From Naegleria gruberi (Eukaryota), in assembly GCA_000004985.1 (NCBI GenBank), contig GG738858.1: DNA of 64,000 bases; one strand, given 5' to 3'. Below the pieces are notes generated by a model. It saw only the letters and a list, made by a program, of their open reading frames with translations, did not search any database and was not told the origin of the DNA. This document shows positions 44,867 through 64,000 of the stretch, piece after piece (position 1 is the stretch's first letter; each line of letters starts with the position of its first letter). Both the position numbers and the translations under genes were made by a program.

Positions 44867-45159
44867 TTTTTTTTATTCGTATTGGAAGGAATTAGAGTTA
44901 GACCTCACGAATGATGGAAAGGCTTTCCGAAGGCTTTGACTTCAACAAAATAGCTGAATAATATTATTATTATTATGAATAATCTGGTTTATTATTAAAA
45001 CAATTTAGAGATTATTAGTATCTTGACAAAACTTGGTAACTCCCTCACCAAATGCTTCATTCAAAGTTGGTTTTTCAACTTTTAAATTACTAAATTTACC
45101 ATTTTTAATTTCTTCCATTGCTTTCTTTGATATTTTACAATTAGTAATAATTACACATG

Positions 45160-45513
45160 TTACATGTTCTTTGAATGATTTTTACTTAAACCTTTGCATG
45201 ATTCATCATCATCAGGTTGAACAATTGCCTTTTCAAATTTTTCATAAATTTTAGCAATATCATTACAATATAATGTTCTATTTATGGTTGTATATTTATA
45301 TTGAATAGCTATAATCTTTCCATTTTCAGTACATTGTATTGCATCAATTCCTTCCTGATTTACTTTACTTGATAATTGTAATATATTTGGAATGTATTGT
45401 TCTTTTTCTTTACAAATCTTTGTAACAACTCTAAATACTTCTTCAATAGTTAAATTATTATTATTATTATTATTAATATTTAAATTATTAATATTTAAAT
45501 TATTATTATTTAA

Positions 45514-45546
<33 letters not shown>

Positions 45547-46299
45547 ATTTAAATCTTGTAAAGTAATTTGATTATTATTTTCTTTTAAACAAATTAATTT
45601 TGCTTGTGTAAGAAGTGTTTCTGTTATTTCAAATGGTTTAAAAGCAAGTGAAGAATGATGTTCAGTAAAATATGCCAATATATTATATTTTTGATATAAT
45701 TTACTTTTAAATTCATTTTTAATATCAAAATTTTTAATAAAATATTTAAATAAACAACTTGTAAATATTTTTGGTAATTTATATGTATTTGAATGTTCAT
45801 CAATTGTACAATATTGTAATAATTCAATTGGTATTTCAACATTTAATAATCTATCACATAATTTAATATTAAATATTGAACTTAATAATTTAATAATTAC
45901 ATCTTTAGATAAATTTAATTGAATAATTTCACTGTATAAAATATCATTTAGATTTGTTATTAATGATGAAAATCTTGGACTATATTCATAATCATCTTCA
46001 TTTAAATATTTAAATGATTCATTATTTATTAATATTTTTACTATTTTAGGATGAACTACATCTCCTAATAAGGAATGTAAACGATTGAATATTGATGGTT
46101 TAATATTTAATAATAGACTATCTATTTTAATTGATGATTTGATAGTACTACTATATTGAATAGTATTTATATTATTATTATTAATATTACAAAAATATTT
46201 AATATTTAAAATATTATTATGAGATTTAATAAATCTAAAAGATGATGATGCTGATGCTGATGATTTAATAACAGTATTAATATATAATCTAGATAACAT
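45160..46299 (-). CDS. Hypothetical protein, 379 aa, N-terminus resembles a mitochondrial presequence (MLSRLYINTVIKSSASASSSFRFIK); a 3' terminal exon at ~45033..45146 is possible
   Basis: Long ORF with AT-rich coding bias and (AAT)n-encoded Asn/LNINN repeats at 45420..45560. It starts with aaaaacaatATG. Function is not recognisable. Confidence 0.6.
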
Positions 46300-46746
46300 A
46301 TTGTTTTTGATAATGAATTAATAGAATTACATCTCAATAGTGTTGATTATTAAGGTTTTAAATGTGACATCAAATGATGATGATGTGATGGATGAAAATA
46401 TTAAGGTGATAATGATATGGTGATGGTGGTGGTGTGTTACTATGAACAATTGTACATCACATCATCAATAGAGTGTGAATATGACTAGTAGATTTAAATA
46501 CAACACCACTATCATTATCATCATCATTATTATTTTGTTGATATCAATTAATTGTTATTCATATAATATTTAATAATAATAATATTAATTAGTATTATTA
46601 TGTAATATTTGGTTTAAAAGCACAGGCTGACTTTGCTTTCAAACATTAGTAGTAATAATCCACATTGGATTTTGTGTTTAATATTGTGAATATTTTGTTC
46701 AACAAATTAACTGATGATTTTCAAAATAATAATAATAGCTGAATAA

Positions 46747-47787
46747 TTGAATAAAATGTCACCAGCAGTTTCATCAAATAAGAGTAGTAGACATCAACAA
46801 CAACAACAACGAGGAAGTAGTGGAGTAGTAAATCAATCCCAAATAGCCTCCAAATCATCATCATCAACACAACAAAAACCAATTAAATTATTACCAATTT
46901 TACAACAAGCATCAGAGGCTTCTAACAACAAGCCTTCCTCTAACAAAAAGCCTTCTTCAATAATTGAAGAACAACAAAACAAGGCTAGTTTAGTATCGGA
47001 GCCTAAAATTATTAAATTTTCCTCTCTAGTCAATTTAGAATCTATTAAAAATCCATATGATATTGCATCATCCAATCATGATAATAATATAAATTTTAAT
47101 AACAAACATTCATCATTAGATGGTAAAGAAAAACAAATAGCCTTAACAATACGTGAAAAGAAGGAATTGAAACAATTAGAACATTCCAAATATATGGAAA
47201 AATTAAAAGAATATTCTCAAGATATTAAACATACACGTAAAGGTGAAGCCTTTGATATTGAAAATAATAGATATATATCTAGAAAGAATGAATTACAAAA
47301 AGAAATGGATCAATTAACATTTGAAATGAAAAAATTTGTCTATGATCAAACATTTAACAAATCCCAAAATGGAAATATGGTTACAAATCAAGAATTATCA
47401 GAAAAACAAAAATTTAAAATTAAACAAATGATGAAAGAAGAATATAGACAACAAGGTAAAGATGTATCTTCTTTAAATGAAAAGTCTAAATATGTTAATT
47501 ATAAAGAATTTAAACAAGAAAAACAAAAAGAATTAAAAATGGAAAGAATTGAAACTAGAGAAATGATTAAAAATGGAATTTTAGATAAAAAACAATTAAG
47601 AAAAAAGAGATTAATGGAACAACAACGTAAATCTTCACAAACTAGAAAATTTTATGCTAAACATGGTGCTCCTAATGAAATTGGTGTTGCTGCTATTAAA
47701 TCTAAATATGGTAAAGGTGGTGCTGTTGGTAAATGGAAAGGTGGTATGTTACATATTAGGAAGGAAGATTTATATACTTTAAAATAA
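46747..47787 (+). CDS. Hypothetical Lys/Glu-rich coiled-coil protein, 346 aa (nucleolar-type basic tail)
   Basis: Long ORF with poly-Gln and a Ser-rich N-terminus. The C-terminus reads KFYAKHGAPNEIGVAAIKSKYGKGGAVGKWKGGMLHIRKEDLYTLK. An alternative start is the Met at 46756 (aaaATG). Confidence 0.6.
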   Translation: MNKMSPAVSSNKSSRHQQQQQRGSSGVVNQSQIASKSSSSTQQKPIKLLPILQQASEASNNKPSSNKKPSSIIEEQQNKASLVSEPKIIKFSSLVNLESIKNPYDIASSNHDNNINFNNKHSSLDGKEKQIALTIREKKELKQLEHSKYMEKLKEYSQDIKHTRKGEAFDIENNRYISRKNELQKEMDQLTFEMKKFVYDQTFNKSQNGNMVTNQELSEKQKFKIKQMMKEEYRQQGKDVSSLNEKSKYVNYKEFKQEKQKELKMERIETREMIKNGILDKKQLRKKRLMEQQRKSSQTRKFYAKHGAPNEIGVAAIKSKYGKGGAVGKWKGGMLHIRKEDLYTLK

Positions 47788-47855
47788 ATATTTTTATTAT
47801 TTATTTTATTTAATTTAATATTTTATTTAATTATATTATATTATATTATTATAAT

Positions 47856-48181
47856 TTATTTTTTATTTAATAATTCTAATAATTGTTCTTGTTTGTTTTT
47901 TAATAATTCCTTTCTCTTTCTCTTCATAATTTTAACATTATCTTTATAAATTGTTAATTTCTTTGAATTATCTTTTTTAACTTTATCTGCAAGTGATTGT
48001 TTTTCATGTTTCTTTTCATCTCTTTTTTTTCTTCTTTCTAATTTTGATTGTTTCTTTTTATCAGATATTTCCTGTATTGAAGAAGAATCCGATGATGATT
48101 GTTCTGTTTGTTGATTTATTTCAATTGATTGTCTATATTCATCAAAGAGACGAAGTTGAAATTCTAAAAGTGATTTACTCA
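47856..48181 (-). CDS. 3' end of a gene encoding a Lys-rich coiled-coil C-terminus (partial; 5' part lies in the N gap)
   Basis: Hand translation of the minus strand gives an open frame: SKSLLEFQLRLFDEYRQSIEINQQTEQSSSDSSSIQEISDKKKQSKLERRKKRDEKKHEKQSLADKVKKDNSKKLTIYKDNVKIMKRKRKELLKNKQEQLLELLNKK*. The stop is at 47856..47858. The frame is open up to the gap edge. No listed ORF covers this because it has no Met. Confidence 0.55.
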
Positions 48182-49230
48182 NNNNNNNNNNNNNNNNNNN
48201 NNNNNNNNNNNNNNNNNNNNNNNNNNNNNNNNNNNNNNNNNNNNNNNNNNNNNNNNNNNNNNNNNNNNNNNNNNNNNNNNNNNNNNNNNNNNNNNNNNNN
48301 NNNNNNNNNNNNNNNNNNNNNNNNNNNNNNNNNNNNNNNNNNNNNNNNNNNNNNNNNNNNNNNNNNNNNNNNNNNNNNNNNNNNNNNNNNNNNNNNNNNN
48401 NNNNNNNNNNNNNNNNNNNNNNNNNNNNNNNNNNNNNNNNNNNNNNNNNNNNNNNNNNNNNNNNNNNNNNNNNNNNNNNNNNNNNNNNNNNNNNNNNNNN
48501 NNNNNNNNNNNNNNNNNNNNNNNNNNNNNNNNNNNNNNNNNNNNNNNNNNNNNNNNNNNNNNNNNNNNNNNNNNNNNNNNNNNNNNNNNNNNNNNNNNNN
48601 NNNNNNNNNNNNNNNNNNNNNNNNNNNNNNNNNNNNNNNNNNNNNNNNNNNNNNNNNNNNNNNNNNNNNNNNNNNNNNNNNNNNNNNNNNNNNNNNNNNN
48701 NNNNNNNNNNNNNNNNNNNNNNNNNNNNNNNNNNNNNNNNNNNNNNNNNNNNNNNNNNNNNNNNNNNNNNNNNNNNNNNNNNNNNNNNNNNNNNNNNNNN
48801 NNNNNNNNNNNNNNNNNNNNNNNNNNNNNNNNNNNNNNNNNNNNNNNNNNNNNNNNNNNNNNNNNNNNNNNNNNNNNNNNNNNNNNNNNNNNNNNNNNNN
48901 NNNNNNNNNNNNNNNNNNNNNNNNNNNNNNNNNNNNNNNNNNNNNNNNNNNNNNNNNNNNNNNNNNNNNNNNNNNNNNNNNNNNNNNNNNNNNNNNNNNN
49001 NNNNNNNNNNNNNNNNNNNNNNNNNNNNNNNNNNNNNNNNNNNNNNNNNNNNNNNNNNNNNNNNNNNNNNNNNNNNNNNNNNNNNNNNNNNNNNNNNNNN
49101 NNNNNNNNNNNNNNNNNNNNNNNNNNNNNNNNNNNNNNNNNNNNNNNNNNNNNNNNNNNNNNNNNNNNNNNNNNNNNNNNNNNNNNNNNNNNNNNNNNNN
49201 NNNNNNNNNNNNNNNNNNNNNNNNNNNNNN
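48182..49230. other. Assembly gap (1049 N)
   Basis: N-run. The supplied ORFs made of X residues (47993..49309, 48175..49236, 48179..49246) are artefacts of this gap. Confidence 0.99.
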
Positions 49231-49346
49231 TTGCAATATATTCCAAAAAATTAATAAAAATATTTTTTATTTTAATAATATATATAAAAATGGATACAAA
49301 ATTAAATAGTAAATACTACATTAAATTAATAATTATATCATTTAAA

Positions 49347-50265
49347 TTACTTCTTCTTCTTCTTCTTTGCAGCAAGAGCAGCAGCAGCACCACTAACACC
49401 ACTTCCACTTCCAACACCACGTACTTGTTCAGGAGTTAATAAGGTTTTTTGTCCCTTTTTGTGAAGAACTGATTTTTGAGCTTCAACATCTGATGAACCT
49501 TGATGTCCAAATCCCATCAAATTACCTGAATGTTTCTTCTTTGTTTCCCATCTTGATTTAAATGTTTCACTTTGTTCATTTAACATACTATGAATTGGAA
49601 GTTTGTTTCTTCTCTTCTTTCTTTGTTTCTTCTTTTCTTCTCTATTCAATGCATCAGCTTGTCTATTACCACCACCCATTGTTGTTGATGATGATGTCTT
49701 GTTAGATGATGATGATGAATTAATAGATTGAATATCAATTTTACTAATAGAAAGTGTAGAAGTATTAGAAGAAGAAGTAATATTAGATGAAGAAGTAATA
49801 TTTGAAATAATTGATGAAGTCTTTTCAATTTCATCAATATTCTTCTTAATGGATGTAGAAGATGTGAAGATTGTAAATCTTTACAATATTTCTCAGCAGA
49901 ATCAATATCATAAAAAGACATGGCTTCAATTAAACCAGCAGTGTGAAGTGAAACATTTTTAGAATCTAATTTAATTAACATTTCAAAAGTAGATGCAGCT
50001 TGTTCATATTTTTTAAATTGTAATTGTAATTTAGCTAATTCATTTGCCATTTCAATTAAATCTTCCTTTTTAGATGAAGATGATAATTTTTTAATGACTT
50101 GTTGTAACATTTCCAATGCAGAATTCATATCATCAATTTTCATATAAAGTGCAATAATTAAACTTTGAATTGATTTTTCATTAATTAATTTAGATTCTTT
50201 TAATAATTCAATACATTCTTTATATTTACCTTGTTGTAAATATAATTGTACAAGTACTAATTCTA

Positions 50266-50296
<31 letters not shown>

Positions 50297-51878
50297 GTAT
50301 TATTATTAGTATTACTAGTATTAGTATTATTATTATTATTGTTAATATTTTTAATATAATTTTTTAATAATTGAATAGATTGATCAAATTTCTTTTGTTT
50401 AAAATATAAATGTGATAAAATTAAAGTTGGAATTTCTGAATTATTATACTAAATAAATTAAATAATTCATTTTGAATAATTTTTTCACATTCATCAAATT
50501 TACCTAAATGTAATTGTAATAAACAATTATTTAAAGTAACACCTCTAATTTGTTCAGTTGTTAATTTACCTTGTAATTTATCTTGATAAGCATGTTTTAA
50601 TTTCTTTTGAGCTTCCAAATCAAAATGTGTTGTATTACCATTATTAGAATTACTATTATTAGTAGTTACATCTAAAATAGCAACAAGATTATTAGCAGCA
50701 ACTGCACCTGCAACTGTATCTTTAGATTGTGTAAAAACTTGTTCAAATAATTTTTTAGAAACATCAACTTGTCCATTTAAATATTTAACATAAGCTAATT
50801 GTACTAAAATGGAAGAAATTTCATTTGTATCTTCAATTTTACATAATTTTTGTGCAAATTCTAAATATTTCTCAGCTTGTTCATAATCTTTTAATCCAAT
50901 AGATNNNNNNNNNNNNNNNNNNNNNNNNNNNNNNNNNNNNNNNNNNNNNNNNNNNNNNNNNNNNNNNNNNNNNNNNNNNNNNNNNNNNNNNNNNNNNNNN
51001 NNNNNNNNNNNNNNNNNNNNNNNNNNNNNNNNNNNNNNNNNNNNNNNNNNNNNNNNNNNNNNNNNNNNNNNNNNNNNNNNNNNNNNNNNNNNNNNNNNNN
51101 NNNNNNNNNNNNNNNNNNNNNNNNNNNNNNNNNNNNNNNNNNNNNNNNNNNNNNNNNNNNNNNNNNNNNNNNNNNNNNNNNNNNNNNNNNNNNNNNNNNN
51201 NNNNNNNNNNNNNNNNNNNNNNNNNNNNNNNNNNNNNNNNNNNNNNNNNNNNNNNNNNNNNNNNNNNNNNNNNNNNNNNNNNNNNNNNNNNNNNNNNNNN
51301 NNNNNNNNNNNNNNNNNNNNNNNNNNNNNNNNNNNNNNNNNNNNNNNNNNNNNNNNNNNNNNNNNNNNNNNNNNNNNNNNNNNNNNNNNNNNNNNNNNNN
51401 NNNNNNNNNNNNNNNNNNNNNNNNNNNNNNGCTAATAATAATTCATTAGTATTATTTAATTCATTTCTATTAGATTGAATAATTTTCAAGGCTTCCTCTG
51501 CTTTATTTAATCTATACAAGGAATAAATCTTTTGAAAATTAGTGGATTGCAAATTTTCAATAACCTTGTTAAATTCTCCTTTTTGAATTTGATTAACAAT
51601 TTTTAATTGTTTTAATTGATTATTATTCTTATCATTGGATAATACTATTATTATTATTATATGATGAAGATGATCAAGATGGTAATGTTGATGATTAATA
51701 TGAAAGACGGAGAAGAAGATTAATACAGATAAGATTAAAATGATGATGAATATATATTCAACTACTACTAATATAACAACATACACTTTTCCAATGTAGA
51801 ATGAATTAAATCTTCATCTTCATCTTCGATGGCTTGTTTTAATTGTTGATAATTGGACAAGAGATTCTTTGGTGCCAT
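49347..51878 (-). CDS. srp72: Signal recognition particle 72 kDa subunit (SRP72), multi-segment model: exon 1 51785..51878, intron 51645..51784, exon 2 from 51644 into the gap, then 50894 down to 49347; interrupted by an N gap and three frame disruptions
   Basis: Exon 1 (MAPKNLLSNYQQLKQAIEDEDEDLIHSTLEK + GTATGT donor) was found by hand. The TPR-like blocks IYSLYRLNKAEEALKIIQS, AGAVAANNLVAIL, ELFNLFSIII, IPTLILSHLYFKQKKFDQSIQLLKNYIK and MKIDDMNSALEML...AEKYCKDL align along SRP72. The C-terminal tail KKKQRKKRRNKLP...SRWETKKKHS...KKKKKK* matches the SRP72 basic RNA-binding tail. The supplied ORFs 49347..49679, 49646..50143, 50421..50618 and 50881..51786 are fragments of this gene in different frames. 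Confidence 0.75.
50262..50345. repeat. (ATT)n/(AAT)n trinucleotide microsatellite inside the SRP72 coding region (poly-Asn tract)
   Basis: A perfect (att)9 at 50267..50293 flanked by imperfect att/agt repeats. The reading frame changes across it. Confidence 0.85.
50895..51430. other. Assembly gap (536 N) inside the SRP72 gene
   Basis: N-run. Confidence 0.99.
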
Positions 51879-51959
51879 TGAATTTTTTTTTAATTTTAGA
51901 ATTATTTTAAAGCCTTGAAATTCTCACTGTGTCTTCTTCATGCTGATGACATCATCACA

Positions 51960-52030
51960 CAACAAGCCTTTTTATTCTTATTCTTTTCTTGAGAATAAAA
52001 TTTAGGAAGAAGAATTAAAAAGGCTTGTTG
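51960..52030. repeat. 14-bp perfect inverted repeat (CAACAAGCCTTTTT ... AAAAAGGCTTGTTG), 43-bp spacer, in the divergent srp72/rac intergenic region
   Basis: Left arm 51960..51973. The right arm 52017..52030 is its exact reverse complement. Confidence 0.8.
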
Positions 52031-52521
52031 ATACTACAAGACTAATGTATCACATAATGCTCTTTGTATCATAATAATAATAAATCCAACATTGATCGAT
52101 CAATGAAAATTTAGTCTTCATCAATATTGTTTTCACCAGGTTGAAAAGTAAAATTCCTTCCAATTCAAAGATAAGTGATGGAAACTTTCCTTCACGAATA
52201 ATAACAAACTAACAATTAGCCTCTTCAACTTACCATTAGACCAATAACAATAATATGAAGAATGAACAACACAATGAATACAAACGCTCCCAATCTTTCA
52301 TCAATCAAATGTCATCTACACAAAAAAAATATTTCATCTCCTCCAACGTTAGTTTGTGTGCTGCTGTGAGGTTTTCAAAAGGCTTTTAAAAAACAAACAA
52401 CAACAACATTTACTCAATAGTAGTAAAAAACCATCAATAATAATAGTAATAATATTATATAACATAATATATTTACACACACACATAAATATAATTGTAA
52501 ACAACAATATAGTAGAAAAAC

Positions 52522-53481
52522 ATGACTGACGACGATTCACAAGAAGAAGGAAATTACGATCAAATTAAATGTGTTGTTGTAGGTGATGGTGCTGTTGGTA
52601 AAACATGTAGGTTTTAAAATTCCCGCGCTTTTAATCATCTTTTTAAACTTTGTAAAATAATAATAATAATAATTACTGATAGGTTTATTATTATCATATA
52701 GTAATAATGAATTTCCAGATGGTATGTATTTCTATTTAATTAAGTATCATTGAATGTGATAATGATGATGATAATGATGATTATTGTTATTGTTATTAAT
52801 TAATTAATTTAGAATATATTCCAACTATTTGTGACAATTATAGTAGTAATGTTGAATATAAAGGACATACTGTATCATTGGCACTGTGGGATACAGCTGG
52901 ACAAGAAGGTATTTATTTTACAATAATTGTAATCTCTTTAACATCATTATTTTAACATGTATTAATTCATAATAATATTCATGATAACAAAATAACATAA
53001 CAAAATAATATAACATAACAACATAATAGAATATGATCAATTACGTCCATTATCATATCCAGATACAAATGTATTTTTGGTTTGTTTTTCAGTTGTCAAT
53101 CCATCATCATTAGAAAATGTTAAAAGTAAATGGGTACCTGAATTGAAACAATCATGTCCAGATACACCCATTGTTCTAGTTGGATCTAAAATTGATTTAA
53201 GAAATGATCCAGAACAAAAAAGGAAACTCCAACAAAAAGCTTCACAACCTCTAACTGAAAAAGAAGGAGAACAAATGAAAGTAGAAATTGGTGCTAATTT
53301 CTATAGAGAATGTTCAGCAAAGACAATGGAAGGACTTGCAGATGTATTCGAATGTGTCATTGAGGCACATTATCAACATTTATTATCAAAGAAGGATACT
53401 GAAAGTTCAAATAATCAAAATTCTAAATCTGGTAAAAAAGGTGGAAAAGATAAGAAAAAGAAAGATTGTTTAATCATGTAA
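52522..53481 (+). CDS. Rho-family small GTPase (Rac-like) with polybasic tail and CAAX box (CLIM), 223 aa; join(52522..52606,52683..52721,52813..52908,53030..53481)
   Basis: Exon 1 [28 protein letters not shown] (P-loop), GTAGGT donor. Exon 2 [19 protein letters not shown] donor. Exon 3 [32 protein letters not shown] (switch II DTAGQE), GTATTT donor. Exon 4 is the supplied ORF 53077..53481 (...[14 protein letters not shown]...[15 protein letters not shown]). All three introns (76, 91 and 121 nt) are AT-rich, end in AG, and keep the frame. Confidence 0.85.
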
Positions 53482-53654
53482 TATTTAATACATTTTAATA
53501 TATTTTAATATTTAAAATAATTGTTTTTTTTAGTGTTTTTAAAAATCATTGTTGTAATCCATGATGAATTAATATGAGTGAAACTTTGCCAAGTCAATGT
53601 TGATGAGTCATAAAATGTTTCATGTGAAAGCAAACTTTCAAAAAGAGAAGGAAA

Positions 53655-53670
53655 GGGGATCCTCTAGAGT
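53655..53670. other. Cloning-vector polylinker remnant (GGGGATCCTCTAGAGT = SmaI half-site + BamHI + XbaI of pUC18/19-type MCS) at a contig end
   Basis: Exact 16-nt match to the pUC multiple cloning site downstream of a blunt SmaI insertion. It sits immediately before the N gap and is GC-rich relative to its surroundings. Confidence 0.7.
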
Positions 53671-54048
53671 NNNNNNNNNNNNNNNNNNNNNNNNNNNNNN
53701 NNNNNNNNNNNNNNNNNNNNNNNNNNNNNNNNNNNNNNNNNNNNNNNNNNNNNNNNNNNNNNNNNNNNNNNNNNNNNNNNNNNNNNNNNNNNNNNNNNNN
53801 NNNNNNNNNNNNNNNNNNNNNNNNNNNNNNNNNNNNNNNNNNNNNNNNNNNNNNNNNNNNNNNNNNNNNNNNNNNNNNNNNNNNNNNNNNNNNNNNNNNN
53901 NNNNNNNNNNNNNNNNNNNNNNNNNNNNNNNNNNNNNNNNNNNNNNNNNNNNNNNNNNNNNNNNNNNNNNNNNNNNNNNNNNNNNNNNNNNNNNNNNNNN
54001 NNNNNNNNNNNNNNNNNNNNNNNNNNNNNNNNNNNNNNNNNNNNNNNN
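53671..54048. other. Assembly gap (378 N)
   Basis: N-run. The supplied ORF 53638..56127 runs through it as X residues. Confidence 0.99.
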
Positions 54049-56127
54049 TCTTTTATGATTTGATTTAAAATTTAAATTTAAAGAAAATAAATCTTCACTT
54101 TTTAAAATTTTAGAATTTCCATTTTTAATTAAAATATTTTTCATTGTTAAAGGTAAAATTAAATTTTTTAATTCATTTAAATTTAAATTTAAATTTTCTA
54201 AAATTTCAAAACATTTAATTTCCAAATTAGTATTAAATAATAATAAAATTAAACATTGATATTCATTTACATGTAAATCATATTCACTTCCAAATCTGGC
54301 AATTAATTGACATGTACCAAGTGAATGTATCCATTTTAATATTCTATTTTGAGTAATTGAATTATAAAAATTTAAAAATAAATTTAAACAATTATTAAAT
54401 TCATTTGGTAATTTTAATTTTAAATTTAATTGAATATAAATGGAAGGCCAAATTCCATTTGTTAAAATTTGTGGATTAAATTCTATTTTATTATTATCAT
54501 TAGTTATATTATTATTTCCATTTATATTATTAATTAAATAATTTTTAAATTTAAATTTTAATTCATTTGAATTATTTAAATCTTTAATCATTCCTTCTAA
54601 TTTAAAAGTAAATGAATTTCCCATTTTTAATTTTAATTTATAAATTAATTGTTTTTCCAATTCAATTTCTTGATTTTTAATTAATTTTTTACATAAAAAT
54701 CTTTTAAAAAATTCTAAAAATAAATCTTTATCATTTAAATAGGAAAATAATAATAAAATATTTTCAATATTTAAATTAAATTCAAAATATTTAACTAGAA
54801 TTTCAGGAAAATCTAAATTTTCATTTACTAAATTTGTAAATGACTGAAATAAAAATTGTTGAAAATAAAAATTATCTTTAAATTCAAATTTAATTAAATT
54901 ACTAAATTTAGTATTTAATTTTAATAAATTTGTAATATATTCATTTGAATCATTTTTAATTAATTCTTTTCCTTCTTTAATTATTACTTGTTTCATTGAA
55001 TTTGCTAATTTTGGTAATTCATTTACAATTTCAAATAATTTAAATAAGATTTTTAATTCTTTAATATTAAAATTATTAAATATTTCAATTGATTCTAATA
55101 ATAAAATTTCTAAATTATTTAAAATTAATTCTTGATTTAAATTTTTAAATAATTTTTTAATGGTTGAATTTGGAAAGAAAAAGGAATTTTTATCTTCAAA
55201 AATTAAAATATTTTCAATTTCTTTAAATAAATAATTATTTTCTAATTTCCATTTTTGATTTAATTGTTTAAAATATAAATTTGATAAATTTAAAAATTCA
55301 TTTTCAAAATCCAAGTAAATTGAATTTTCCTTATATAGATTTAATTCATTTGATAATTCAATTAAATATAAAATTCCATTTTTTAATAAATTTTCATTAA
55401 TAATTTCAAAATTTCTTTTTTTTTCATATTTTTCCAAAATTAATTTAGAAAAATTATTTTTAATTTCCAAATAAATAATTTTAAAATAATTTTCAATTGC
55501 AATTTGTTTTAAATTTGATTTTTGAAATTGTTCTATAAAAGATCTTTCAATGTAATTAAATAATTTTGTAAAATATTTAATAATAATTAAATAATCTTTC
55601 CATTTTTGTATACATTGATTTAAAAATAAATCTCCATTTAAATTTTTTAATTGATTTAAATTATTATTTAAAAATTTTATAATAATTTTTTCATATTTAA
55701 TATAAATTAATTCTTTTGAAATTTCTAAATTTAAACATAAATTATAAATGGATGAATAAATAATTAAATAGTCTTGACTTGATGAATTTAAATTTTCTAA
55801 AAATTGTAAAATTCCTTTTTTAATTATTTTCCATTGTTTTTTAAATAATTCATATTCATCATTGTTATTATTATCACTACTAGATGAATTATTTGAAATA
55901 CTATTGAAAAGTTTAATTTTCTTTTCTTGATGAATAAATTCATTACTTGTTGATTCAAAAGTTGATGATTGTAATAAATTAGAGTTGACTTGATGATGAT
56001 CGGAATGTGATGGTGATGATAAGGAACATGATGACAATGTATTATTGATAGTATCCTCATCATCATCTAAACAAGAAGATAATTGACAAGATTTTCGTTT
56101 TTTAGGAACATTTCTTCTGAAATTCAT
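54049..56127 (-). CDS. Cullin-family protein (E3 ubiquitin-ligase scaffold), N-terminal ~690 aa present; C-terminal cullin-homology/neddylation region lost in the gap
   Basis: Open frame from the ATG at 56127 (MNFRRNVPKKRK...). Cullin signature blocks: DKDLFLEFFKRFLCKKLI (cf. DKDVFE.YYK..LA.RLL), GNSFTFKLEGMIKDL (cf. CG..FTSKLEGMF.DM) and ILKWIHSLGTCQLIARFGSEYDLHVNEYQCLILLLFN (cf. L.W...LG.c.L...F......L.VS..Q..VLLLFN). Confidence 0.7.
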
Positions 56128-56220
56128 TTTTTATGTATTGGAAATTATTTACAATTCATCTCTTTCAATGACATTTAAATATCACCAAATGATGATGATG
56201 ATGATAAACAAGGATGAGAT

Positions 56221-57060
56221 TTAATTTGTTTGTAACTTATTTTTCAATTGTTCAATTTCTGATTGTAATTGTAAAACTTCTTCTTCATGAGTTTGTTGCA
56301 TCACTTCACGTAAATGTTTATCTGCTTGTTTTTGTAAATTTAATTGATTTTCAAAATCAGATTTCATCATTTCCTTTTCTTTTGCTAATGAAAGAATCTT
56401 ATTTCTAAATACATTTTTAGTAGTTTCTAAAATTGTTATTTGTTGTTTCAATGAATCAATTGTTAATCTAGTATCACTATTAATACTCAATGTATTATAC
56501 ATTAATTGATAATATGTTTTATCATTAGTTAATTCTATAATTTCATTTTCTAATATTTTAATCTTTTCCAAATATGGTTGAATAATTGCTTCTTCTTCAA
56601 CTATTTCATATTGAATAATTGTATTTTGTGTACTAGTTGTTTCGAGTACTGGTTGTATTATAGTGTTAGTAATAGTAGTAGATGTTGTATTAATTGTTTG
56701 ATCTAAAAGTATTGTTGGTGAATTAATAGGTGATGATGAATTAACTCGATTAACTTTAAAAGTTTGATCTTCAAAGATGGCAAATTTCTTCTTCTTTGAT
56801 GGACTTTTATATTGACCGGATGGTGGTGGTGATATAGTAGTGGATTGTAATTTTCTCTTCAGATCAAGTTTGTTCGAAGGCTTTAAAGAAAATTCCTTCT
56901 TCATAGGCTTTGAATTTTGTTGTTGTTGTGACTTGAGTCCTGTTGGCGTGATATTTTCCTTATCAATGATGGTGGTTTTCTTATTGGCGAGTTGAAGACT
57001 AGTGCCTCTCATTGTGGCCATTAGAGGATTAGTTGGTTGGAGGGCTTGTTGTTGAGACAT
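56221..57060 (-). CDS. Hypothetical protein, 279 aa: Ser/Thr/Gln-rich N-terminus with a KEN motif (IDKENITP) and a C-terminal coiled-coil
   Basis: Long ORF with coding-like composition, starting aaaaaATGtctcaa. There is heptad-like periodicity in the last ~110 aa. No recognisable catalytic domain. Confidence 0.55.
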   Translation of the reverse strand: MSQQQALQPTNPLMATMRGTSLQLANKKTTIIDKENITPTGLKSQQQQNSKPMKKEFSLKPSNKLDLKRKLQSTTISPPPSGQYKSPSKKKKFAIFEDQTFKVNRVNSSSPINSPTILLDQTINTTSTTITNTIIQPVLETTSTQNTIIQYEIVEEEAIIQPYLEKIKILENEIIELTNDKTYYQLMYNTLSINSDTRLTIDSLKQQITILETTKNVFRNKILSLAKEKEMMKSDFENQLNLQKQADKHLREVMQQTHEEEVLQLQSEIEQLKNKLQTN

Positions 57061-57155
57061 TTTTTTATCTGTGATATTAAATTGATTATTTTTTGAAATT
57101 ATTTAACGTTAGATTTTGGCGGCAAGTTTAACCGCTTAAAATAACTACAAAAAAA
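57061..57155. promoter_or_regulatory. Short divergent promoter region between the minus-strand gene starting at 57060 and the plus-strand gene starting at 57156
   Basis: A 95-bp AT-rich spacer between two divergently oriented start codons. This is inferred from gene arrangement only. Confidence 0.3.
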
Positions 57156-59541
57156 ATGAGTGCAAACGTTCCAAGAGAAATTCTCAAGTGGATGCAATCA
57201 TTGGACTTGTCGTATTCGATAAAGAATATGAGAAGAGATTTTTCAAATGGTTTTCTTATAGCAGAAATTATTTCTCGATATTTTTCTCAAGAGGTTGAAA
57301 TGCACAGCTTTGATATCGGTGTTGGAGTTAAGGCTAAAATGGATAATTGGCAATTATTAGAAAAATTCTTTAGAAAACATGGACTAAATATTTCAAGAAA
57401 AGTTATTGATGATTTAATTGCATGTAGACCAAATTCTCTGAATGTTGTTTTGGAAGAAGTTTATACATTTCTCACAGAAAAGAGGTAAGTTTTCAGTAAT
57501 AAGAATTTCTTGATCCGAATTTAAAACCAGTGTCAAGAAGGCTAAACCAATCAGACTTCCTACAGTTAATGTACCTAATTTTGCTAAACCAACAGTCTCT
57601 AAAACTAATAAGGATGATGGAAGAGCAGCTGTTTCAAGTTTTGTCATGTCAAAGAGAAATCAAATTTCATCAGCTAAAGGAAATTCATCTAACAATAATA
57701 CTAATAATGAAATACCTTCATTGGAAATTACATTTAGAGATAGTAAATCATCAAGTACTCAACGTTCTAAATCATCAAATCAACAACAACAAATGGCCGC
57801 CACTGCATTATTAGCAAATATTTTCATTGATATGAATGATATTATTGAGGCAGCATCATGTAATGAATCGGATATCATTTCAGAGTATAGATTGGACAGA
57901 GGAAATTTAATTGCATCATTTTTGGAGAAGATTAATTCAATTCCTGTTGAACATTCTGAAGGAATTCTTAATAGTATAAAGGAAAGGATTCCTCTCTATT
58001 CTGAAATGATGTCAGCTCAACCAAAAGATTTTTGGAAGTTTATGAACATTTTCATTCCAGCTGTAAGAAATTCATCTGCAACTGTGTTTCAAATATTGTG
58101 CTCTATTTTAATAACATTGGGTATTGAAATGGTATCGAGAGATCCTGAATCAACTTGGGAAGCTGTTGAAGATTTTGCATTGGATAAATTTGTTGAAACA
58201 ATTTCAACTCAAGCAAGTAAGAGAGAAGAAATTGTTCAAATTGTTTACAGTTTTACAACATCAGATTTCCACACCCATAAGAGAGTGATTTCAAAGTTAG
58301 TTGAAAAATGCTCTAAATACGAGTCACATTTAATAATTCATATCCTAGCTCTTTTGGTAAGACATGAGTCATCTCTTTTAACAATATATGATTCAGGAAA
58401 TGGACCAATTTTCAATGATGATCAAGTTGACTTTTTCGAAGTATACATGAATCATGCTATTAGTGGATTGAGTAATCCATCTCCAAAAGTTAGAGCTTCA
58501 AGTTTATCCATTGTTCATACATTATTATCATATGACGATATTACATTTGATAATAAGAATGAAACAAAATCTAAGAGAGATAATAGTGAAAGTGAAGTCA
58601 ACTTTTCCAATCAACCTTTATTATACATTATGGAAAATTTATGGTCCCAAAGTATTGAACCATTGGAAAATGATAATTGGTGGGAAGTAACAGCTCAATT
58701 AATTGTTTTAACCTCTAAGTGTTTGACACAAGTCAAAAAATTATACATGGTAGATAATATACAAGAGCATGAAGACATCTTGATAGCGTTCTTAGAAAGA
58801 CTGTTAGCTAGAGAATTGAGCTCAACATTGAAGAGTATCATTCTCTCATATGTTAGCTCTCATCTTAAAACATATAGTGACAGATTAACATCTGTTTACC
58901 TTGACATTCTCTTCTCTATAACAGAAGAAGAAAGAGTTGCACTTTTGGAACAACCTTCAAATCATGTTGAATTATTACAAGTTGGAAATAGTCAATACAA
59001 GTTCCCAATCATGAGTATACCATTTGAATGGGACAGTTTAACGGTTGCAAAGGTAGTTTCTGATCAAGTTGTAAATCTAGATCACTTGGAAGTTGAACAT
59101 TACGATGTATTGAATGCTTGTATATCTATAGCACAATTAGATCAACCTGAAGATGATAAGACATTTAAGGATTCATGTCCATCTGAATGGTTGGAGATTT
59201 ATGATCGTCTTCAAAATCACTTCTTTGTTGGATTGGTTGATGAAGAATTGTGCGAGATGGCTGCACAGTTGATAGTTAAATTCTTCTCAGTTTTGAAAAA
59301 GGAAGTTGTTAAATCAATGGCTGCCCAACTTGTTAACTCTATTGAAATAATCTATGGAGGTAACCAATTTGCACACCAACAAGCCATTTTTTCTCAGTTC
59401 TTAATAGACGTCTACTCTTTGGGAAGTCCATTCAGTCAACCATTAATGAAGCTTGCCAGTTCACTCATGGAACAATCGCATCTAACAACAAATCAACATT
59501 TAGGAAAGTTTGTATCCTTTGTGAGGAATAACATGATGTAA
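57156..59541 (+). CDS. Protein with an N-terminal SPEF1/CLAMP-type calponin-homology-like domain (PF06294/DUF1042 type) followed by a ~630-aa helical-repeat region; exon 1 57156..57484, intron starting at the GTAAGT donor 57485, exon 2 ending 59541 (acceptor uncertain; 57531, 57555, 57624 and 57639 are in-frame candidates)
   Basis: Exon 1 EILKWMQSLDLSYSIKNMRRDFSNGFLIAEIISRYFSQEVEMHSFD...ISRKVIDDLIACRPNSLNVVLEEVYTFLTEK aligns closely with SPEF1 N-termini (RDFSDGVLVAEVIKFYFPKMVEMHNY...CAPGVVELVL). A canonical AG|GTAAGT donor follows directly. The downstream frame (supplied ORF 57646..59541) is open upstream of its Met back to 57514. This supports joining the two. Confidence 0.6.
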
Positions 59542-60643
59542 ATTCATTGTAAATAAAAACAATAAAAACCAAACAAGGTTTAGAAAGTAATACAATGGAA
59601 AAGCATTTCTTAATAAGTCATCATTAATAATTGCCCAAATAAGGACATTTTAGGTTATCACTCTATTAATTTTCGCATTTTACTTTCAAAACCTAAATTT
59701 GATCTTTAAAATCCAAAAATTAAGCAAAGATCCCTTCACCTTACAAGAATGGTAATGCTAGTCCCACACGGTAATATGACCTTAAATTACAGTAGCCAAA
59801 TTAGTCAACTATTAAAAAATTGAGAAAAGATCGGATGGCCCCACTATTCAAAACTGTTTTAAGGATTGATCAATGCATTCACAAGCCTTTTAGGATGCCC
59901 AACTATTTAAACAGTCCAAACACACCACAAGGTTTCCTCAATAGCAACACAGTGTGCACCATTCAACAACTAACAACAACGACTTTAGTAATTGCAGTGG
60001 ATACCCTAAGGTTTACTGATTCTCTACACTATGGAGGTGATTACTCTTAGAAAAATTAACAACACTCAACACACTACTGTTGTTGAATTTAATACACAGA
60101 TACGTTGTGTGTATTCTCCACTTTAACAATATCATCATCAAGATTGGCATCATTTACATTGTTTATCTAATAAGAGTATATTGAATACTAAAATCGATTA
60201 TTACCTATAAAGTATATTAAGGACCAGATTCAACTCAAAAATATATTGTTCTTACTCCCATAAATAATTCTAAGCGTTGAACCTGTCTAAATATAATAGC
60301 CATCAACATCATTTAACTGTTTAGCTATTTAACTACAATACATAAATTCTAGTAAAATAGTAAACTCATCCGAATATTTCATCAGAGTTTACTAATCCTC
60401 TCAAAGCGAATCCTATCCCACACTTGTCAAGATAGATAACACGAGTGCGTGCTTTGTGAATCATCTAGGAACAATTAAGGCAACGCAACAAACTAATAGC
60501 AACATAATTACCTTGTGTGTTCTTGGCGCGCGCAACTTCCTCTGATATCTACAAACAAGGCTTATTCTCTCATTCAAACCCTCAACAAACGCATTGTTGG
60601 TTTTCGTTGGAATAATAACATACATTTATATAATTATTGAAAA

Positions 60644-63356
60644 ATGAGTCGAGTCACACCACTATCACCCTCACAGCAGAGTCAAATAACGCCCTCAACA
60701 ACGACATTATCCTTTAAATCTTCGGATTCTAAGGGTCAACAGATGAATAATTCTGCTAGTACAATTCAAATATTAAATTCAAGACCAATATCAGCATCAG
60801 GTACGCAAAGAAGTAATTCACTTTTTGATGAAACTTACATTACTTCAAACTCTGAATTTGAAGCGGAGAGAATTGATAAACAAATGCCAGTCATGATGAG
60901 ATTAGAATCAGCAGTATTTGAGCCTAAGAAGAATACTTATGATCCAAATCAATTTTCATCAAGTACTTTAAATTTAAATTCTAAAAGTGAAACTAATCTA
61001 TCAACTATGGCTTTAAATGATCCAACTCCATCTGAAACAGGTAGCATTTATTCATTAGCTTCAAGTCCAAGAAGTTTTTATTTTAGTTTTAGATGTTCTT
61101 TATTATGTTCAATGTTTTTTTTAATTATTTCACCAATTTTATTATTATTAGCAATTTCCATAACCTTTTCTTTATTAACTTCAGTTGAAGTTGAAAAACA
61201 AGTTGTTTTATTATCTTTATATAGAGCTGAATTATATGTTTCTGATTTTTTAGATCTAGGAAGGAAATTAACAGTTTTACAAAAACAAATGATTACTGAT
61301 AATTATTATTCCAAGTTTGAAACTGATGATTATTTCAACACTTTTAATAATTACAAATCAATTTTAAAATCACTTGCTGCAGTTCACAAACATAATAAGG
61401 CTTCTTTCTTTTTATTTGATTTTACTTCTCGCAATGCTGATTACATTTATGTAAATACAAAACAAACCGAAACAAGAATTTGGAATTCCAAATTATATGA
61501 TAATCAACAAGAATATTATTACATGTCAAATATTGAATCTTTACCATATTCCAACATTACTAAATATAACTTGACGAAGGATTTAAAATTTGATGTTATT
61601 GGATATATTGAACAAGAATTTTGGAATCCGTTCGCAGAAACATATTTTAAATTATCACAATCGTATGATAAAGCTCTTGTACCAATGTCAGTACAAACAC
61701 AAGGTGCTGACAGTGTTGAAGAACGAGTTTACATTTGTTATCAGGAGAATGTCTATTCTCAAATTAATGAAACAAAATTCCTAGGCGTTACAAGTGCAAA
61801 TGTTGTGGTGAGAGAATTGGCTTCCTTTATTAAGAATTATCATGTTTCAGCAAGAGGTTTTGCACTTGTTGTAGAAATGAATTATGATCAAGAATCAAAT
61901 ACATTGAAAAAGAGAATGGTTGCCTATAAAGATTATAATCAATTGGCAAAGAAAGATCCAGAAAGTACAGGTGGTTATAAAATACCAGACGCAGAAGAAA
62001 TTGAAGATTTGTTTTTAAGATTTGTTATCACACAGATTATACCTAATAATGTTCATGATGTGAATATCAAATCAGAAGAATTGTTTAGATTCATGTATGG
62101 AGGTGAATCTTATTTAATGGCTTTTAAGATTGTTTCATCTTCAAAAGATTTAAACATGCAATGGTTGACTATTATTTGTGCTCCTGAAATTGGTATGTTT
62201 TTTTATTATCAAAAATTGAATCATATTTGAAATGTATATTGTTGAATTGTGTAATATAGATTTTATTGGTAATTTACTTTTATTAACAGGTCTTAATATT
62301 GGTGTTAGTATATTAGCATTCTGTTTTTCAATGGTATTTGTATTCTATTTTGCCTCTTCAATTTCTAAACCATTATTATATTTCTCATCTGAGAGTAAAG
62401 CCATTTCAAATCTTAAAGTACATCGTGGAGGAATTATCAAGACTAGAATTCGTGAAATTTTACTTTTATCTGAAGCTTTTGAAAAGATGAAGACAACATT
62501 GAGATCATTTATGAGATTTGTTCCTCGTCAATTAATTGTGGAAATGGTAGAAAAGGGAATTGAAATGAAATTAGGTGGTCATATTCATGAAAATATTACA
62601 ATTTTATTTTCAGATGTTGAAGACTTTACAACATGGAGTGAAAAATTAGAACCACAATTTTTAATTAGACATGTTTCTGAATATTTCCATGTCATGACAG
62701 AAGAAATTGTGAATGAAGAAGGTACACTTGATAAATATATAGGTGATGCAGTAATGGCATTCTGGGGAGCTCCTAATTTTATGTATGACACTTCAATGAG
62801 AGCTTGTAGAGCTGCTATTAAATGTCAAGAAAGAATGGACAAGTTGAGAAAAATATGGGAGAAACAAAACAAACCTTTATTTAAATGTAGAATTGGATTA
62901 CATACTGGTTCATGTATTATTGGTAATATTGGTTCTTTATGGAGATTAAATTATACTGCTTTGGGTGATTCTGTTAATTTAGCATCAAGATTGGAAGGTC
63001 AAAATAAGTTTTATGGAACTGAAATTTTAATTAGTCAAGATACTTATAAGAATGTTGCTAGTAGTTTTAATTGTAGAAGAATTGATACAGTTGGTGTAAA
63101 GGGTAAATCGGTTGGTATTACTATTTATGAATTAATTTCAAGAAAGGAAGAAACTATACCAAATCCTAAAATTGAAACACGTTTGAAATTAACTCCAATT
63201 TATGAATCTGCACTTGCTGAATATCAATTAGGAAGATTTACTGAAGCACTTAAATTGTTAATGACAAGATGTCAAGATATTGATTGTAATGACTTGGCTA
63301 CTCAAACGTTAATTGATAGATGTAAAGAATACATTCAATATCCACCATATAATTGA
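60644..63356 (+). CDS. acgA: Receptor-type class III adenylyl cyclase with extracellular sensor domain between two hydrophobic segments (ACG-like, ~870-880 aa); exon 1 60644..62192, intron from the GTATGT donor at 62193, exon 2 from 62260 or 62290 (both acceptors in frame) to 63356
   Basis: Exon 1 has a Ser/Thr-rich N-terminus, a hydrophobic segment FYFSFRCSLLCSMFFLIISPILLLLAISITFSLL, then a ~330-aa presumably extracellular domain. Exon 2 has a second hydrophobic segment LNIGVSILAFCFSMVFVFYFASS, a cyclase transducer-like linker (FVPRQLIVEMVEKG) and a complete catalytic domain with metal-binding Asp (ILFSDVEDFT, YIGDAVMAF), purine-selecting Lys (DKYIGD) and the transition-state Asn/Arg (GDSVNLASRLEG). 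Confidence 0.7.
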
Positions 63357-63556
63357 ATGAAAAGTAAAAATATGTTCAATTTCTATGATAATCAATCTCT
63401 AGGTCAATACTTGTGAGATTACAATTAATTTCGGGCTTTACCTCGCTAGAAAGTGATCCGAGTTAACACAGTAAAAAATGATTTCCAATTCATCTCCAAT
63501 TTATTACAGCAAAATAAGCGTTCCACACTATTGAGAAAAAGCCTTGATCAAAAAAA

Positions 63557-64000
63557 ATGTCAACAACAACAACAATTAACAATATGGAAGTTAGCAAAAC
63601 TGCCCGCACTGTAATGATTGTTTGTATGCTATTGATGGGTATGACACTCATTCATGGCGCAACAACAGCCATTCAACTTAAAAGTTCAGGTGATACTGTG
63701 ACTGGATCCGTCAGCAAGGGAATTATGAATATGTATTATATTAATGTTGATAGTGTTAGTTCAATGTCTGTCCAATTCACCAACACTTATTCATCATCAT
63801 CTGTTAATGTTTATATCAAAGCTAATCAACCACCAACTACCTATAATTATGATAGTATTATTACCTATCCAGGTGTTTCAAAGAGTATTATTACATTGAA
63901 GAATTCAACTCTCACTCAACCATATTATATTGGTGTTTATGGTCTTGGTAGTTCTACTAATTATTATACTTTACAAGTTAGTGTCATCTCTGGACAAGAT
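63557..64000 (+). CDS. 5' part of a gene for a secreted protein (signal peptide + Ser/Thr/Tyr-rich beta-type domain), truncated by the window end
   Basis: aaaaaaATG at 63557. Hand translation: MSTTTTINNMEVSKTARTVMIVCMLLMGMTLIHGATTAIQLKSSGDTVTGSVSKGIMNMYYINVDSVSSMSVQFTNTYSSSSVNVYIKANQPPTTYNYDSIITYPGVSKSIITLKNSTLTQPYYIGVYGLGSSTNYYTLQVSVISGQD... The frame stays open to the last base. Confidence 0.55.
   Translation, partial: MSTTTTINNMEVSKTARTVMIVCMLLMGMTLIHGATTAIQLKSSGDTVTGSVSKGIMNMYYINVDSVSSMSVQFTNTYSSSSVNVYIKANQPPTTYNYDSIITYPGVSKSIITLKNSTLTQPYYIGVYGLGSSTNYYTLQVSVISGQD

What the first reader, a model, noticed from the sequence alone, without database searches (positions are those of the whole stretch)
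59560..60640. ~1.1-kb GC-enriched, ORF-free island upstream of the cyclase gene
Intergenic DNA elsewhere in the window is almost pure A/T. This stretch is conspicuously more complex (e.g. ggatggccccactattc, ttggcgcgcgcaacttcctctgatatc, cacgagtgcgtgctttgtg) and has no ORF above ~75 codons on either strand. In AT-extreme genomes such islands are typically non-coding RNA genes, relics of transposable elements, or long structured 5' UTR/promoter regions.
Basis: seen in the sequence. Interest (0 to 1): 0.5.

Follow-up and report, generated by a model that had tools for sequence, protein, structure and literature searches.

The report
Long ATG-free spacer before cyclase gene
The "GC island" is the ordinary, non-coding spacer between two same-strand genes of the amoeboflagellate Naegleria gruberi (not a slime mould); its only notable feature is a 612-base stretch with no ATG directly before the cyclase start codon, which most likely marks an unusually long 5' leader of that mRNA.

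Summary
The window is Naegleria gruberi, not a dictyostelid: two window proteins match NCBI N. gruberi entries exactly. The stretch 59542-60643 (1102 bp, 32% GC) does lack ORFs. It shows no codon-usage signal in any frame, no protein homologue, no Rfam family and no repeat. It is not a GC island. Its GC equals that of the flanking genes (30-33%) and of the next spacer (31%), and lies just below the genome average (35%). The contrast comes from an unusually AT-rich block at 43-56 kb. The orthologous spacer is only 156 bp in N. lovaniensis and 127 bp in a Naegleria-like contig, with no sequence similarity, so about 950 bp are lineage-specific. Internally it has three parts. Two AATAAA signals follow the upstream gene's stop. 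A CpG-depleted distal half has normal ATG density. A proximal 612 nt (60032-60643) has zero sense-strand ATG, against about 10 expected, and is the longest ATG-free run in 186 kb examined. Its last ~340 nt are not CpG-depleted, as at other gene starts. Best reading: 3' UTR, promoter, and a long, G-poor, weakly structured, uAUG-free 5' leader of the cyclase mRNA. This is inferred, with no transcript data. Interest is low.

The parts
57156..59541 (+). Upstream flanking gene (context). SPATA4-like CH_2-domain protein NAEGRDRAFT_65518. Exons 57156-57484 and 57531-59541, with a 46-nt intron at 57485-57530.
   Evidence: My spliced model is 100% identical over 779/779 aa to the NCBI N. gruberi protein. 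Pfam CH_2 E 6e-31.
59552..59566 (+). Two AATAAA hexamers (59552 and 59561, within a 9-nt x2 repeat AATAAAAAC) 11-25 nt after the stop. Probable polyadenylation signals of the upstream gene.
   Evidence: Motif positions. These are the only AATAAA on the + strand of 59500-60700, and there are none on the - strand. The Naegleria-like contig L002 has TGTAAATAAA at the same place after its stop. The function is inferred.
59542..60031 (.). Distal half of the spacer. Non-coding and lineage-specific, with normal ATG density (8 on the + strand) and CpG depletion (o/e 0.16-0.49). It presumably holds the 3' UTR of the upstream gene plus upstream promoter or neutral DNA.
   Evidence: no coding signal; ATG positions, CpG; CpG profile; no similarity to orthologous loci.
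59833..59908 (+). Imperfect direct repeat: GGATGGCCCCACTATTCAAAAC (59833) and GGATGCCCAACTATTTAAAC (59893), 60 nt apart. Significance unknown.
   Evidence: Seen directly in the sequence. GGATG occurs on the + strand only at 59833 and 59893. Not picked up as significant by the repeat finder.
60032..60643 (+). 612-nt stretch with no ATG on the sense strand, ending at the cyclase start codon. G-poor (12%) and A/C-rich. Proposed long uAUG-free 5' leader (plus core promoter) of the cyclase mRNA.
   Evidence: 0 ATG against 10.1 +/- 2.3 in dinucleotide shuffles (0 of 5000 shuffles have 0). With the island shuffled and the run anchored at the start codon, mean 68, 99th percentile 277, and 0 of 3000 reach 613. 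The - strand of the same stretch has 20 ATG. It is the longest of 3943 ATG-free runs in 186 kb. Thirty-five other genes have 5-337 nt. MFE is -104 kcal/mol, z -1.8.
60358..60394 (+). Perfect 10-bp inverted repeat TAGTAAACTC / GAGTTTACTA with a 17-nt loop. It is the only clear local hairpin in the proposed leader.
   Evidence: the repeat finder I23. Windows 60300-60459 have z -2.9 to -3.5. 60300-60460 has z -2.2, with 3 of 200 shuffles folding as well.
60300..60800 (.). Zone where CpG is not depleted (o/e 0.76-1.02 against 0-0.5 in gene bodies). It includes the GCGCGCGC palindrome at 60526-60533. This is a promoter/5'-end signature.
   Evidence: CpG profile. The same peak occurs at -200..+100 of start codons in the N. 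gruberi window, N. lovaniensis and W. magna loci. GCGCGCGC position.
60644..63356 (+). Downstream flanking gene (context). Receptor-type class III nucleotidyl cyclase, with a predicted 67-nt intron at 62193-62259.
   Evidence: ORFs. Pfam Guanylate_cyc E 7e-24. Collinear tblastx with the N. lovaniensis cyclase gene from 61082 onward. Coding codon usage starts at 60644. Intron sequence.

Best explanation
The stretch is the intergenic spacer between two tandem + strand genes of Naegleria gruberi: the SPATA4-like CH-domain gene NAEGRDRAFT_65518 and a receptor-type adenylyl/guanylyl cyclase. It is non-coding and has normal Naegleria composition. It is about 950 bp longer than the orthologous spacer in other Naegleria lineages.

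It reads, 5' to 3', as three parts:
(1) the short 3' UTR and poly(A) signals of the upstream gene (AATAAA x2 at 59552-59566);
(2) about 450 bp of CpG-depleted, lineage-specific DNA that acts as spacer or upstream promoter;
(3) 612 nt (60032-60643) that carry the cyclase core promoter and a long 5' leader.

The leader is kept free of upstream AUGs, so scanning ribosomes reach the first AUG at 60644, which opens the ~880-codon cyclase ORF. It is G-poor and only weakly structured, which would make it easy to scan and leave it free to bind regulators.

Shown: it is non-coding, lineage-specific, ATG-free on the sense strand and not CpG-depleted. Inferred: that it is transcribed, the TSS position (somewhere between about 60032 and 60550), and any regulatory role.
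For: Organism and gene identities.

Non-coding: the longest open frame equals chance. Codon-usage log-odds is negative in all six frames across the stretch but clearly positive in both flanking genes. No protein among 5.8 billion matches any open segment of 25 aa or more at E<=10. Pfam finds nothing.

No known RNA family, tRNA or snoRNA architecture.

Synteny: CH gene then cyclase in N. lovaniensis (spacer 156 bp) and in the Naegleria-like contig L002 (127 bp), with no nucleotide or translated similarity to the stretch.

The same A>T, C>G sense-strand composition occurs in all three spacers.

ATG-free run: 0 observed against 10.1 +/- 2.3 expected. The start-codon-anchored test gave 0 of 3000. 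It is the longest run in the window and in 186 kb of heterolobosean sequence, and an outlier against 35 other genes, whose maximum is 337 nt.

Comparable shorter ATG-free runs abut start codons elsewhere: L002 439 nt and L003 362 nt.

CpG o/e is about 1 from 60300 to 60800, as at other gene 5' ends.

AATAAA x2 lie right after the stop.
Against: No transcript data of any kind could be consulted, so neither the TSS nor transcription of the stretch is shown.

Long ATG-free runs also occur where no leader is expected, for example 509 nt antisense to a W. magna gene. The empirical significance is therefore nearer 0.01-0.03 than the shuffle value.

The CpG-rich zone begins only about 340 nt before the ATG. 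A TATAAAG sits at 60206. Both fit a shorter leader of 100-400 nt, in which case part of the ATG-free run would be chance.

The orthologues manage with spacers of at most 156 bp, so a long leader is not required for this gene's function.

The origin of the extra ~950 bp is unexplained.
Confidence: 0.6

Rival explanations
1. Functionless lineage-specific filler. About 980 bp of decayed inserted DNA (an old mobile element, retrocopy or other insertion) sits between a short 3' UTR and a short promoter/leader. The ATG-free run is then a by-product of G-poor composition plus chance.
For: The orthologous spacers are 127-156 bp. A 13-nt direct repeat CAAACAAGG(T/C)TTA lies at 59570 and 60552 (D13) and brackets 982 bp. 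Removing this segment would leave about 120 bp, the orthologous size. The distal part is CpG-depleted like bulk DNA. N. gruberi is 10 Mb larger and less coding-dense than its relatives. Long ATG-free runs do occur elsewhere.
Against: By my estimate (not a tool result), about two 12-of-13 repeats are expected by chance in 1.1 kb. There is no poly(A) tail, TIR, LTR-like end or TE protein remnant and no second copy in the window. The ATG-free run is anchored exactly at the start codon on the sense strand only. This rival does not exclude the best explanation: an insertion could have been co-opted as a leader.
Confidence: 0.25
2. An independent, N. gruberi-specific non-coding RNA gene (lncRNA or an undescribed structured RNA) lies in the spacer.
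For: The length (1.1 kb), coding-like GC without coding potential, uniform strand asymmetry with C>G and A>T, and two locally stable regions at 59540-59740 and 60300-60460.
Against: No Rfam family at any threshold. The folding z-scores are modest for the number of windows scanned. The sequence is absent from the syntenic locus of three relatives. The same strand asymmetry is seen in the short orthologous spacers.
Confidence: 0.08
3. An unannotated protein-coding gene with short exons, or a recent pseudogene.
For: Naegleria genes have introns whose GC (18-28%) is not far below exon GC. Other ORF-poor segments of about 30% GC in the window do hold multi-exon genes.
Against: There is no codon-usage signal in any frame. 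No hit for any open segment among 5.8 billion proteins, which include the N. gruberi and N. lovaniensis proteomes. Pfam finds nothing. tblastx against relatives is negative. The single phmmer hit of the longest ORF (P0037, E 6e-5) is a spurious ORF across a 135-bp satellite, its score is doubled by the repeat, and it is not significant at the DNA level.
Confidence: 0.03

Closest known systems
Long uAUG-free eukaryotic 5' leaders read by scanning ribosomes (first-AUG rule; selection against upstream AUGs in 5' UTRs)
   Same: The sense-strand ATG-free stretch ends exactly at the first ATG, which opens the long ORF. The antisense strand is not depleted. Similar but shorter runs occur before other heterolobosean genes.
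   Different: The TSS and transcription are not demonstrated. At up to 612 nt it is far longer than the whole spacer in the orthologues (127-156 bp), and nothing is known here about typical Naegleria UTR lengths.
G-poor, CA-rich unstructured translational leaders such as the tobacco mosaic virus omega leader (recalled from general knowledge, not tested)
   Same: Low G (12%), A/C-rich, and weak predicted structure (-0.17 kcal/mol per nt, z -1.8).
   Different: No CAA-repeat core. It is ten times longer, cellular rather than viral, and no enhancer activity is shown. This is a functional analogy only.
CpG-island-like promoters (CpG not depleted at gene 5' ends in a genome with CpG-depleted gene bodies)
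   Same: CpG o/e is about 1.0 in 60300-60800 against 0-0.5 in gene bodies. The same pattern appears at other start codons in three species.
   Different: GC is only 34-41%, the scale is very small (14 CpGs), and the methylation state was not examined.
   Same: Only the superficial picture of a complex, ORF-free kilobase next to a cyclase gene.
   Different: Wrong organism. No repeat structure or TE protein remnants.

Membership tests
Eukaryotic mRNA 5' leader (5' UTR) | Lies directly upstream of, and on the same strand as, the start codon of a real protein-coding gene | tested here: met
   The stretch ends at ATG 60644. Coding codon usage starts there, the downstream ORF is an orthologue of the N. 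lovaniensis cyclase, and it carries PF00211.
Eukaryotic mRNA 5' leader (5' UTR) | Depletion of upstream AUGs on the sense strand | tested here: met
   0 ATG in 612 nt against 10.1 +/- 2.3 expected. The anchored test gave 0 of 3000. It is the longest of 3943 runs. Thirty-five control genes show 5-337 nt.
Eukaryotic mRNA 5' leader (5' UTR) | Transcribed from a mapped TSS and contiguous with the CDS in the mRNA | not testable with these tools
   No N. gruberi transcript or read data are reachable. The N. gruberi genome is not in the contig index.
Known structured ncRNA families (Rfam 15) | Covariance-model score at or above the family gathering threshold | tested here: not met
   0 hits in the whole window. 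The best sub-threshold hits are 25 bits against a cut-off of 70, and 20 bits against 45. No tRNA. No C-box/D-box/terminal-stem arrangement.
Transposable-element relic | Terminal repeats (TIR or LTR) and a target-site duplication | tested here: inconclusive
   No TIR or LTR-like ends. There is one 13-nt 12/13 direct repeat near both ends (59570 and 60552), which by my estimate (not a tool result) is at chance level.
Transposable-element relic | Remnants of transposase, RT or integrase coding sequence | tested here: not met
   No protein or Pfam similarity for any open segment. No match in plasmid or phage DNA.
Transposable-element relic | Multiple copies in the genome | not testable with these tools
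   Only this window of the N. gruberi genome is available. No second copy exists within it.
Protein-coding gene or pseudogene | An open frame beyond chance, codon-usage signal, or homology | tested here: not met
   The single weak hit was explained as an artefact.
   32% against flanks of 29-33% and the next spacer at 31%. The genome mean is 35%. N. lovaniensis spacers are 25-38%.

The most novel reading that the evidence does not exclude
A ~1-kb DNA segment gained only in the N. gruberi lineage was co-opted as an exceptionally long (about 0.5-0.6 kb), G-poor, uAUG-free leader. Under this reading it puts one receptor-type cyclase under post-transcriptional (translational or stability) control, for instance during amoeba-to-flagellate differentiation or encystment. 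Alternatively, the distal half encodes a species-specific lncRNA that regulates the cyclase in cis.
Probability: 0.15. Interest if true: 0.4.

Novelty: new member of a known kind. Interest (0 to 1): 0.2.

Why it matters
It matters mainly as a correction. The window is Naegleria gruberi, the stretch has normal composition for that genome, and it is neither an ncRNA gene nor a recognisable transposon relic.

The small positive result is a testable prediction. One of the many Naegleria cyclase genes should have an unusually long upstream-AUG-free leader, built from DNA that its relatives lack. ATG-free runs and CpG non-depletion could also serve as cheap markers of 5' ends in poorly annotated heterolobosean genomes. 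The cyclase ORF appears to have no counterpart in the public N. gruberi proteome.

Tried and rejected
1. Dictyostelium frame (dutA lncRNA, acgA 5' region): I pursued this in the literature. I dropped it once exact protein matches showed the window is N. gruberi.

2. Homologues of the cyclase N-terminal ORF: none found, not even an N. gruberi model. That search was wasted for comparative purposes.

3. Fetching the N. gruberi record itself: not in the contig index.

The same query run through the search for homologous proteins gave nothing.

5. Longest ORF (81 aa) by exhaustive phmmer: one hit, P0037, at E 6e-5. It is an ORF across a 135-bp satellite in an unidentified eukaryotic contig. The score is the sum of two repeat copies. 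Each single HSP scores only 30.8 bits (pairwise E about 2e-7), which by my scaling to the library size would not be significant on its own. The DNA-level alignment gives p about 0.07. Rejected as chance.

6. Eyeballed U6 snRNA-like string (GAGAAAAGATCGGATGGCCCC, 59822-59843): the alignment is no better than shuffles, with 148 of 500 reaching it. There is no U6 hit in focused Rfam scans. Rejected.

7. Decayed duplicate of the cyclase 5' end or of the CH gene: local alignments are at chance level.

8. Conservation of the proximal promoter with the N. lovaniensis and L002 spacers: not alignable (z -0.02 and 0.54). Those two spacers are not alignable with each other either.

9. C/D snoRNA search: no candidates.

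10. Metagenome scan for closer relatives: one distant CH-gene locus (L004) without a cyclase.

11. Contamination or HGT check against plasmids and phages: no match.

12. Literature on Naegleria UTRs and promoters: nothing usable.

Full report
ORGANISM AND GENE MAP

The first 38,306 bases of the window are N, and three further N runs follow.

ORF 46756-47784 is identical to N. gruberi XP_002679245.1. My spliced model of the gene just upstream of the finding has exons 57156-57484 and 57531-59541, with a 46-nt intron. It is 100% identical over all 779 residues to NAEGRDRAFT_65518, a SPATA4-like CH_2-domain protein.

The window is therefore a Naegleria gruberi scaffold, not a dictyostelid. The downstream gene (60644-63356, with a predicted 67-nt intron at 62193-62259) carries a class III cyclase domain (PF00211, E 7e-24).

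THE OBSERVATION

Between stop 59541 and ATG 60644 lie 1102 bp with 32.0% GC (A .373, C .196, G .124, T .307). The longest open frame is 81 codons, which is what shuffles give (70 +/- 15). So the stretch really is ORF-free.

It is not a GC island, for four reasons:
- GC is flat at 0.28-0.34 from 56.5 to 64 kb.
- The flanking CDSs are 32% and 29% GC, and the next spacer is 31%.
- The N. gruberi genome averages 35% GC with 57.8% coding (PMC6125883, PMC9928731).
- Spacers in the syntenic N. lovaniensis locus are 25-38% GC.

Part of that block is coding: a cullin-like ORF at 14% GC, whose N. lovaniensis orthologue segment is 30% GC.

IS IT CODING, A KNOWN RNA, OR A REPEAT?

Coding:
- A codon-usage log-odds profile trained on window genes is positive in the true frame of both flanking genes (means +0.23 and +0.29). 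It is negative in all six frames throughout the stretch, with means of -0.18 to -0.28 and no window above +0.12.
- All 21 open segments of at least 25 aa, concatenated, found nothing at E<=10 among 5.8 billion proteins. That database contains the N. gruberi and N. lovaniensis proteomes.
- Pfam found nothing.
- An exhaustive phmmer search of the longest ORF gave one hit. It proved to be a spurious ORF across a 135-bp satellite, with its score inflated by the repeat.

Known RNA:
- Rfam gave no hit at gathering thresholds in the whole window. E-value mode gave only far-sub-threshold hits.
- There are no tRNAs and no C/D-box arrangement.

Repeat or contamination:
- No repeat is shared with the rest of the window, and there are no terminal repeats.
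- There is no match to plasmid or phage DNA.

COMPARATIVE EVIDENCE

Orthologues of the CH gene led to three syntenic loci:
- In N. lovaniensis (L001) the CH gene is followed by the cyclase after only 156 bp.
- In a Naegleria-like ENA contig (L002) the gap is 127 bp.
- In Willaertia magna (L003) the cyclase is absent from the locus.

Gene order from 49.9 to 63.3 kb is collinear with N. lovaniensis. The cyclase proteins align from 61082 onward.

The stretch has no blastn, tblastx or Smith-Waterman similarity to these loci beyond the tail of the CH gene. About 950 bp are therefore specific to the N. gruberi lineage. A metagenome scan added only a distant locus without a cyclase.

All three spacers share the same sense-strand bias, A>T and C>G.

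A 13-nt direct repeat CAAACAAGG(T/C)TTA lies at 59570 and 60552 and brackets 982 bp. Removing that segment would leave about 120 bp, the orthologous size. A repeat of this quality is expected by chance, however, and no poly(A) tail or TIR accompanies it.

INTERNAL ANATOMY

(i) Poly(A) signals. AATAAA occurs twice, 11-25 nt after the CH stop, and nowhere else on the + strand of 59500-60700. L002 has TGTAAATAAA at the same place. These are probably the poly(A) signals of the upstream gene.

(ii) Distal half, 59542-60031. It has 8 sense-strand ATGs, which is normal density. CpG o/e is 0.16-0.49, like gene bodies.

(iii) Proximal half, 60032-60643. It has no sense-strand ATG, while the antisense strand has 20.
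- Dinucleotide-preserving shuffles of the 612 nt expect 10.1 +/- 2.3 ATG, and 0 of 5000 shuffles have none.
- A fairer test shuffles the whole stretch and measures the ATG-free run that abuts the start codon. It gives a mean of 68 nt and a 99th percentile of 277 nt, and 0 of 3000 shuffles reach 613.
- The run is the longest on either strand in the window. It is also the longest of 3943 runs in 186 kb of window plus fetched loci.
- For 35 other genes the run before the start codon is 5-337 nt.

Caveat: runs of 400-500 nt also occur in places where no leader is expected. I therefore rate the empirical significance at about 0.01-0.03.

Shorter analogues abut start codons elsewhere. L002 has a 439-nt run followed by an ATG that opens an ORF of at least 148 aa. 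L003 has a 362-nt run in a similarly C-rich, G-poor spacer.

(iv) CpG. CpG o/e rises to about 1.0 from 60300 to 60800. The same peak is seen at -200..+100 of start codons in all three species. This marks the proximal part as a gene 5' end or promoter.

(v) Structure. Predicted structure is weak. The 612 nt fold at -104 kcal/mol with z -1.8. The only clear element is a 10-bp hairpin at 60358-60394.

INTERPRETATION

The stretch is an ordinary intergenic spacer. It comprises the 3' UTR of the CH gene, spacer or upstream promoter DNA, and the promoter plus a long, G-poor, uAUG-free, weakly structured 5' leader of the cyclase mRNA.

The mechanism I commit to is scanning-dependent initiation at the first AUG (60644), with upstream AUGs kept out of the leader by selection. 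The TSS lies somewhere between about 60032 and 60550. The ATG-free run argues for the far end of that range. The CpG zone and a TATAAAG at 60206 argue for a nearer TSS.

The transcription state and any regulatory role are inferred, not shown. The origin of the extra DNA (insertion or gradual growth) is unresolved. A functionless decayed insertion is the main rival, and it is not exclusive of the leader model.

VERDICT

The stretch is a new example of a known kind of feature and is of low interest. RNA-seq or 5'-RACE mapping and a genome-wide BLASTN would settle the open points.

Noticed in passing
window 43000-56200: An extreme-AT block (21.5% GC overall) in a genome that averages 35%. The cullin-like ORF 53638-56127 (-) is about 14% GC, while its N. 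lovaniensis orthologue segment is 30%. Sequencing gaps (N runs at 48182-49230, 50905-51430 and 53671-54048) lie within the block. This suggests a regional AT-biased mutation or repair regime.
   Followed up: partly
window 38460-39122 (-) and 40139-40792 (-): A near-identical tandem duplicate of a dual-specificity-phosphatase-like ORF (220 and 217 aa), including 300 nt of identical flank, with a period of 1679 bp. It sits directly next to the 38-kb N run.
   Followed up: no
window 60644-62230 (+): The 528-aa N-terminal ORF of the cyclase found no protein at all in the 5.8-billion-protein database, not even an N. gruberi model. N. lovaniensis has an 840-aa model at the syntenic place. The gene may be missing or mis-modelled in the public N. 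gruberi annotation.
   Followed up: partly
window 56000-64000; L001; L003: CpG observed/expected is about 1.0-1.2 within -200..+100 of start codons and falls to 0.2-0.6 in gene bodies, in N. gruberi, N. lovaniensis and Willaertia magna. This is a CpG-island-like 5'-end signature that could help annotation. An extra internal peak lies at 61400-61700 inside the cyclase ORF.
   Followed up: partly
L002 15372-15811 (+); L003 15018-15380 (+): Other long ATG-free runs (439 and 362 nt) end at an ATG that opens a long ORF, in C-rich, G-poor spacers. This suggests that leaders of several hundred nt without upstream AUGs recur in Heterolobosea.
   Followed up: partly
window 57485-57530: A very short (46-nt) GT-AG intron in NAEGRDRAFT_65518. 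It is validated by the exact match of the spliced product to the NCBI protein.
   Followed up: yes
L005 4329-5548: A 135-148-bp satellite (about 8.7 copies, 91% identical) in a 2-Mb contig of an unidentified eukaryote (ENA ERZ25069786). It is called as a 100-aa 'protein' (P0037), and it produced the only, spurious, database hit of the stretch.
   Followed up: yes
window 60522-60534 and 57113-57127: GC-rich motifs upstream of both genes: TTGGCGCGCGCAA about 110 nt before the cyclase ATG, and TTTTGGCGGCAAG about 35 nt before the CH-gene ATG. They resemble E2F-type sites (TTTSGCGC, from memory). Not tested.
   Followed up: no
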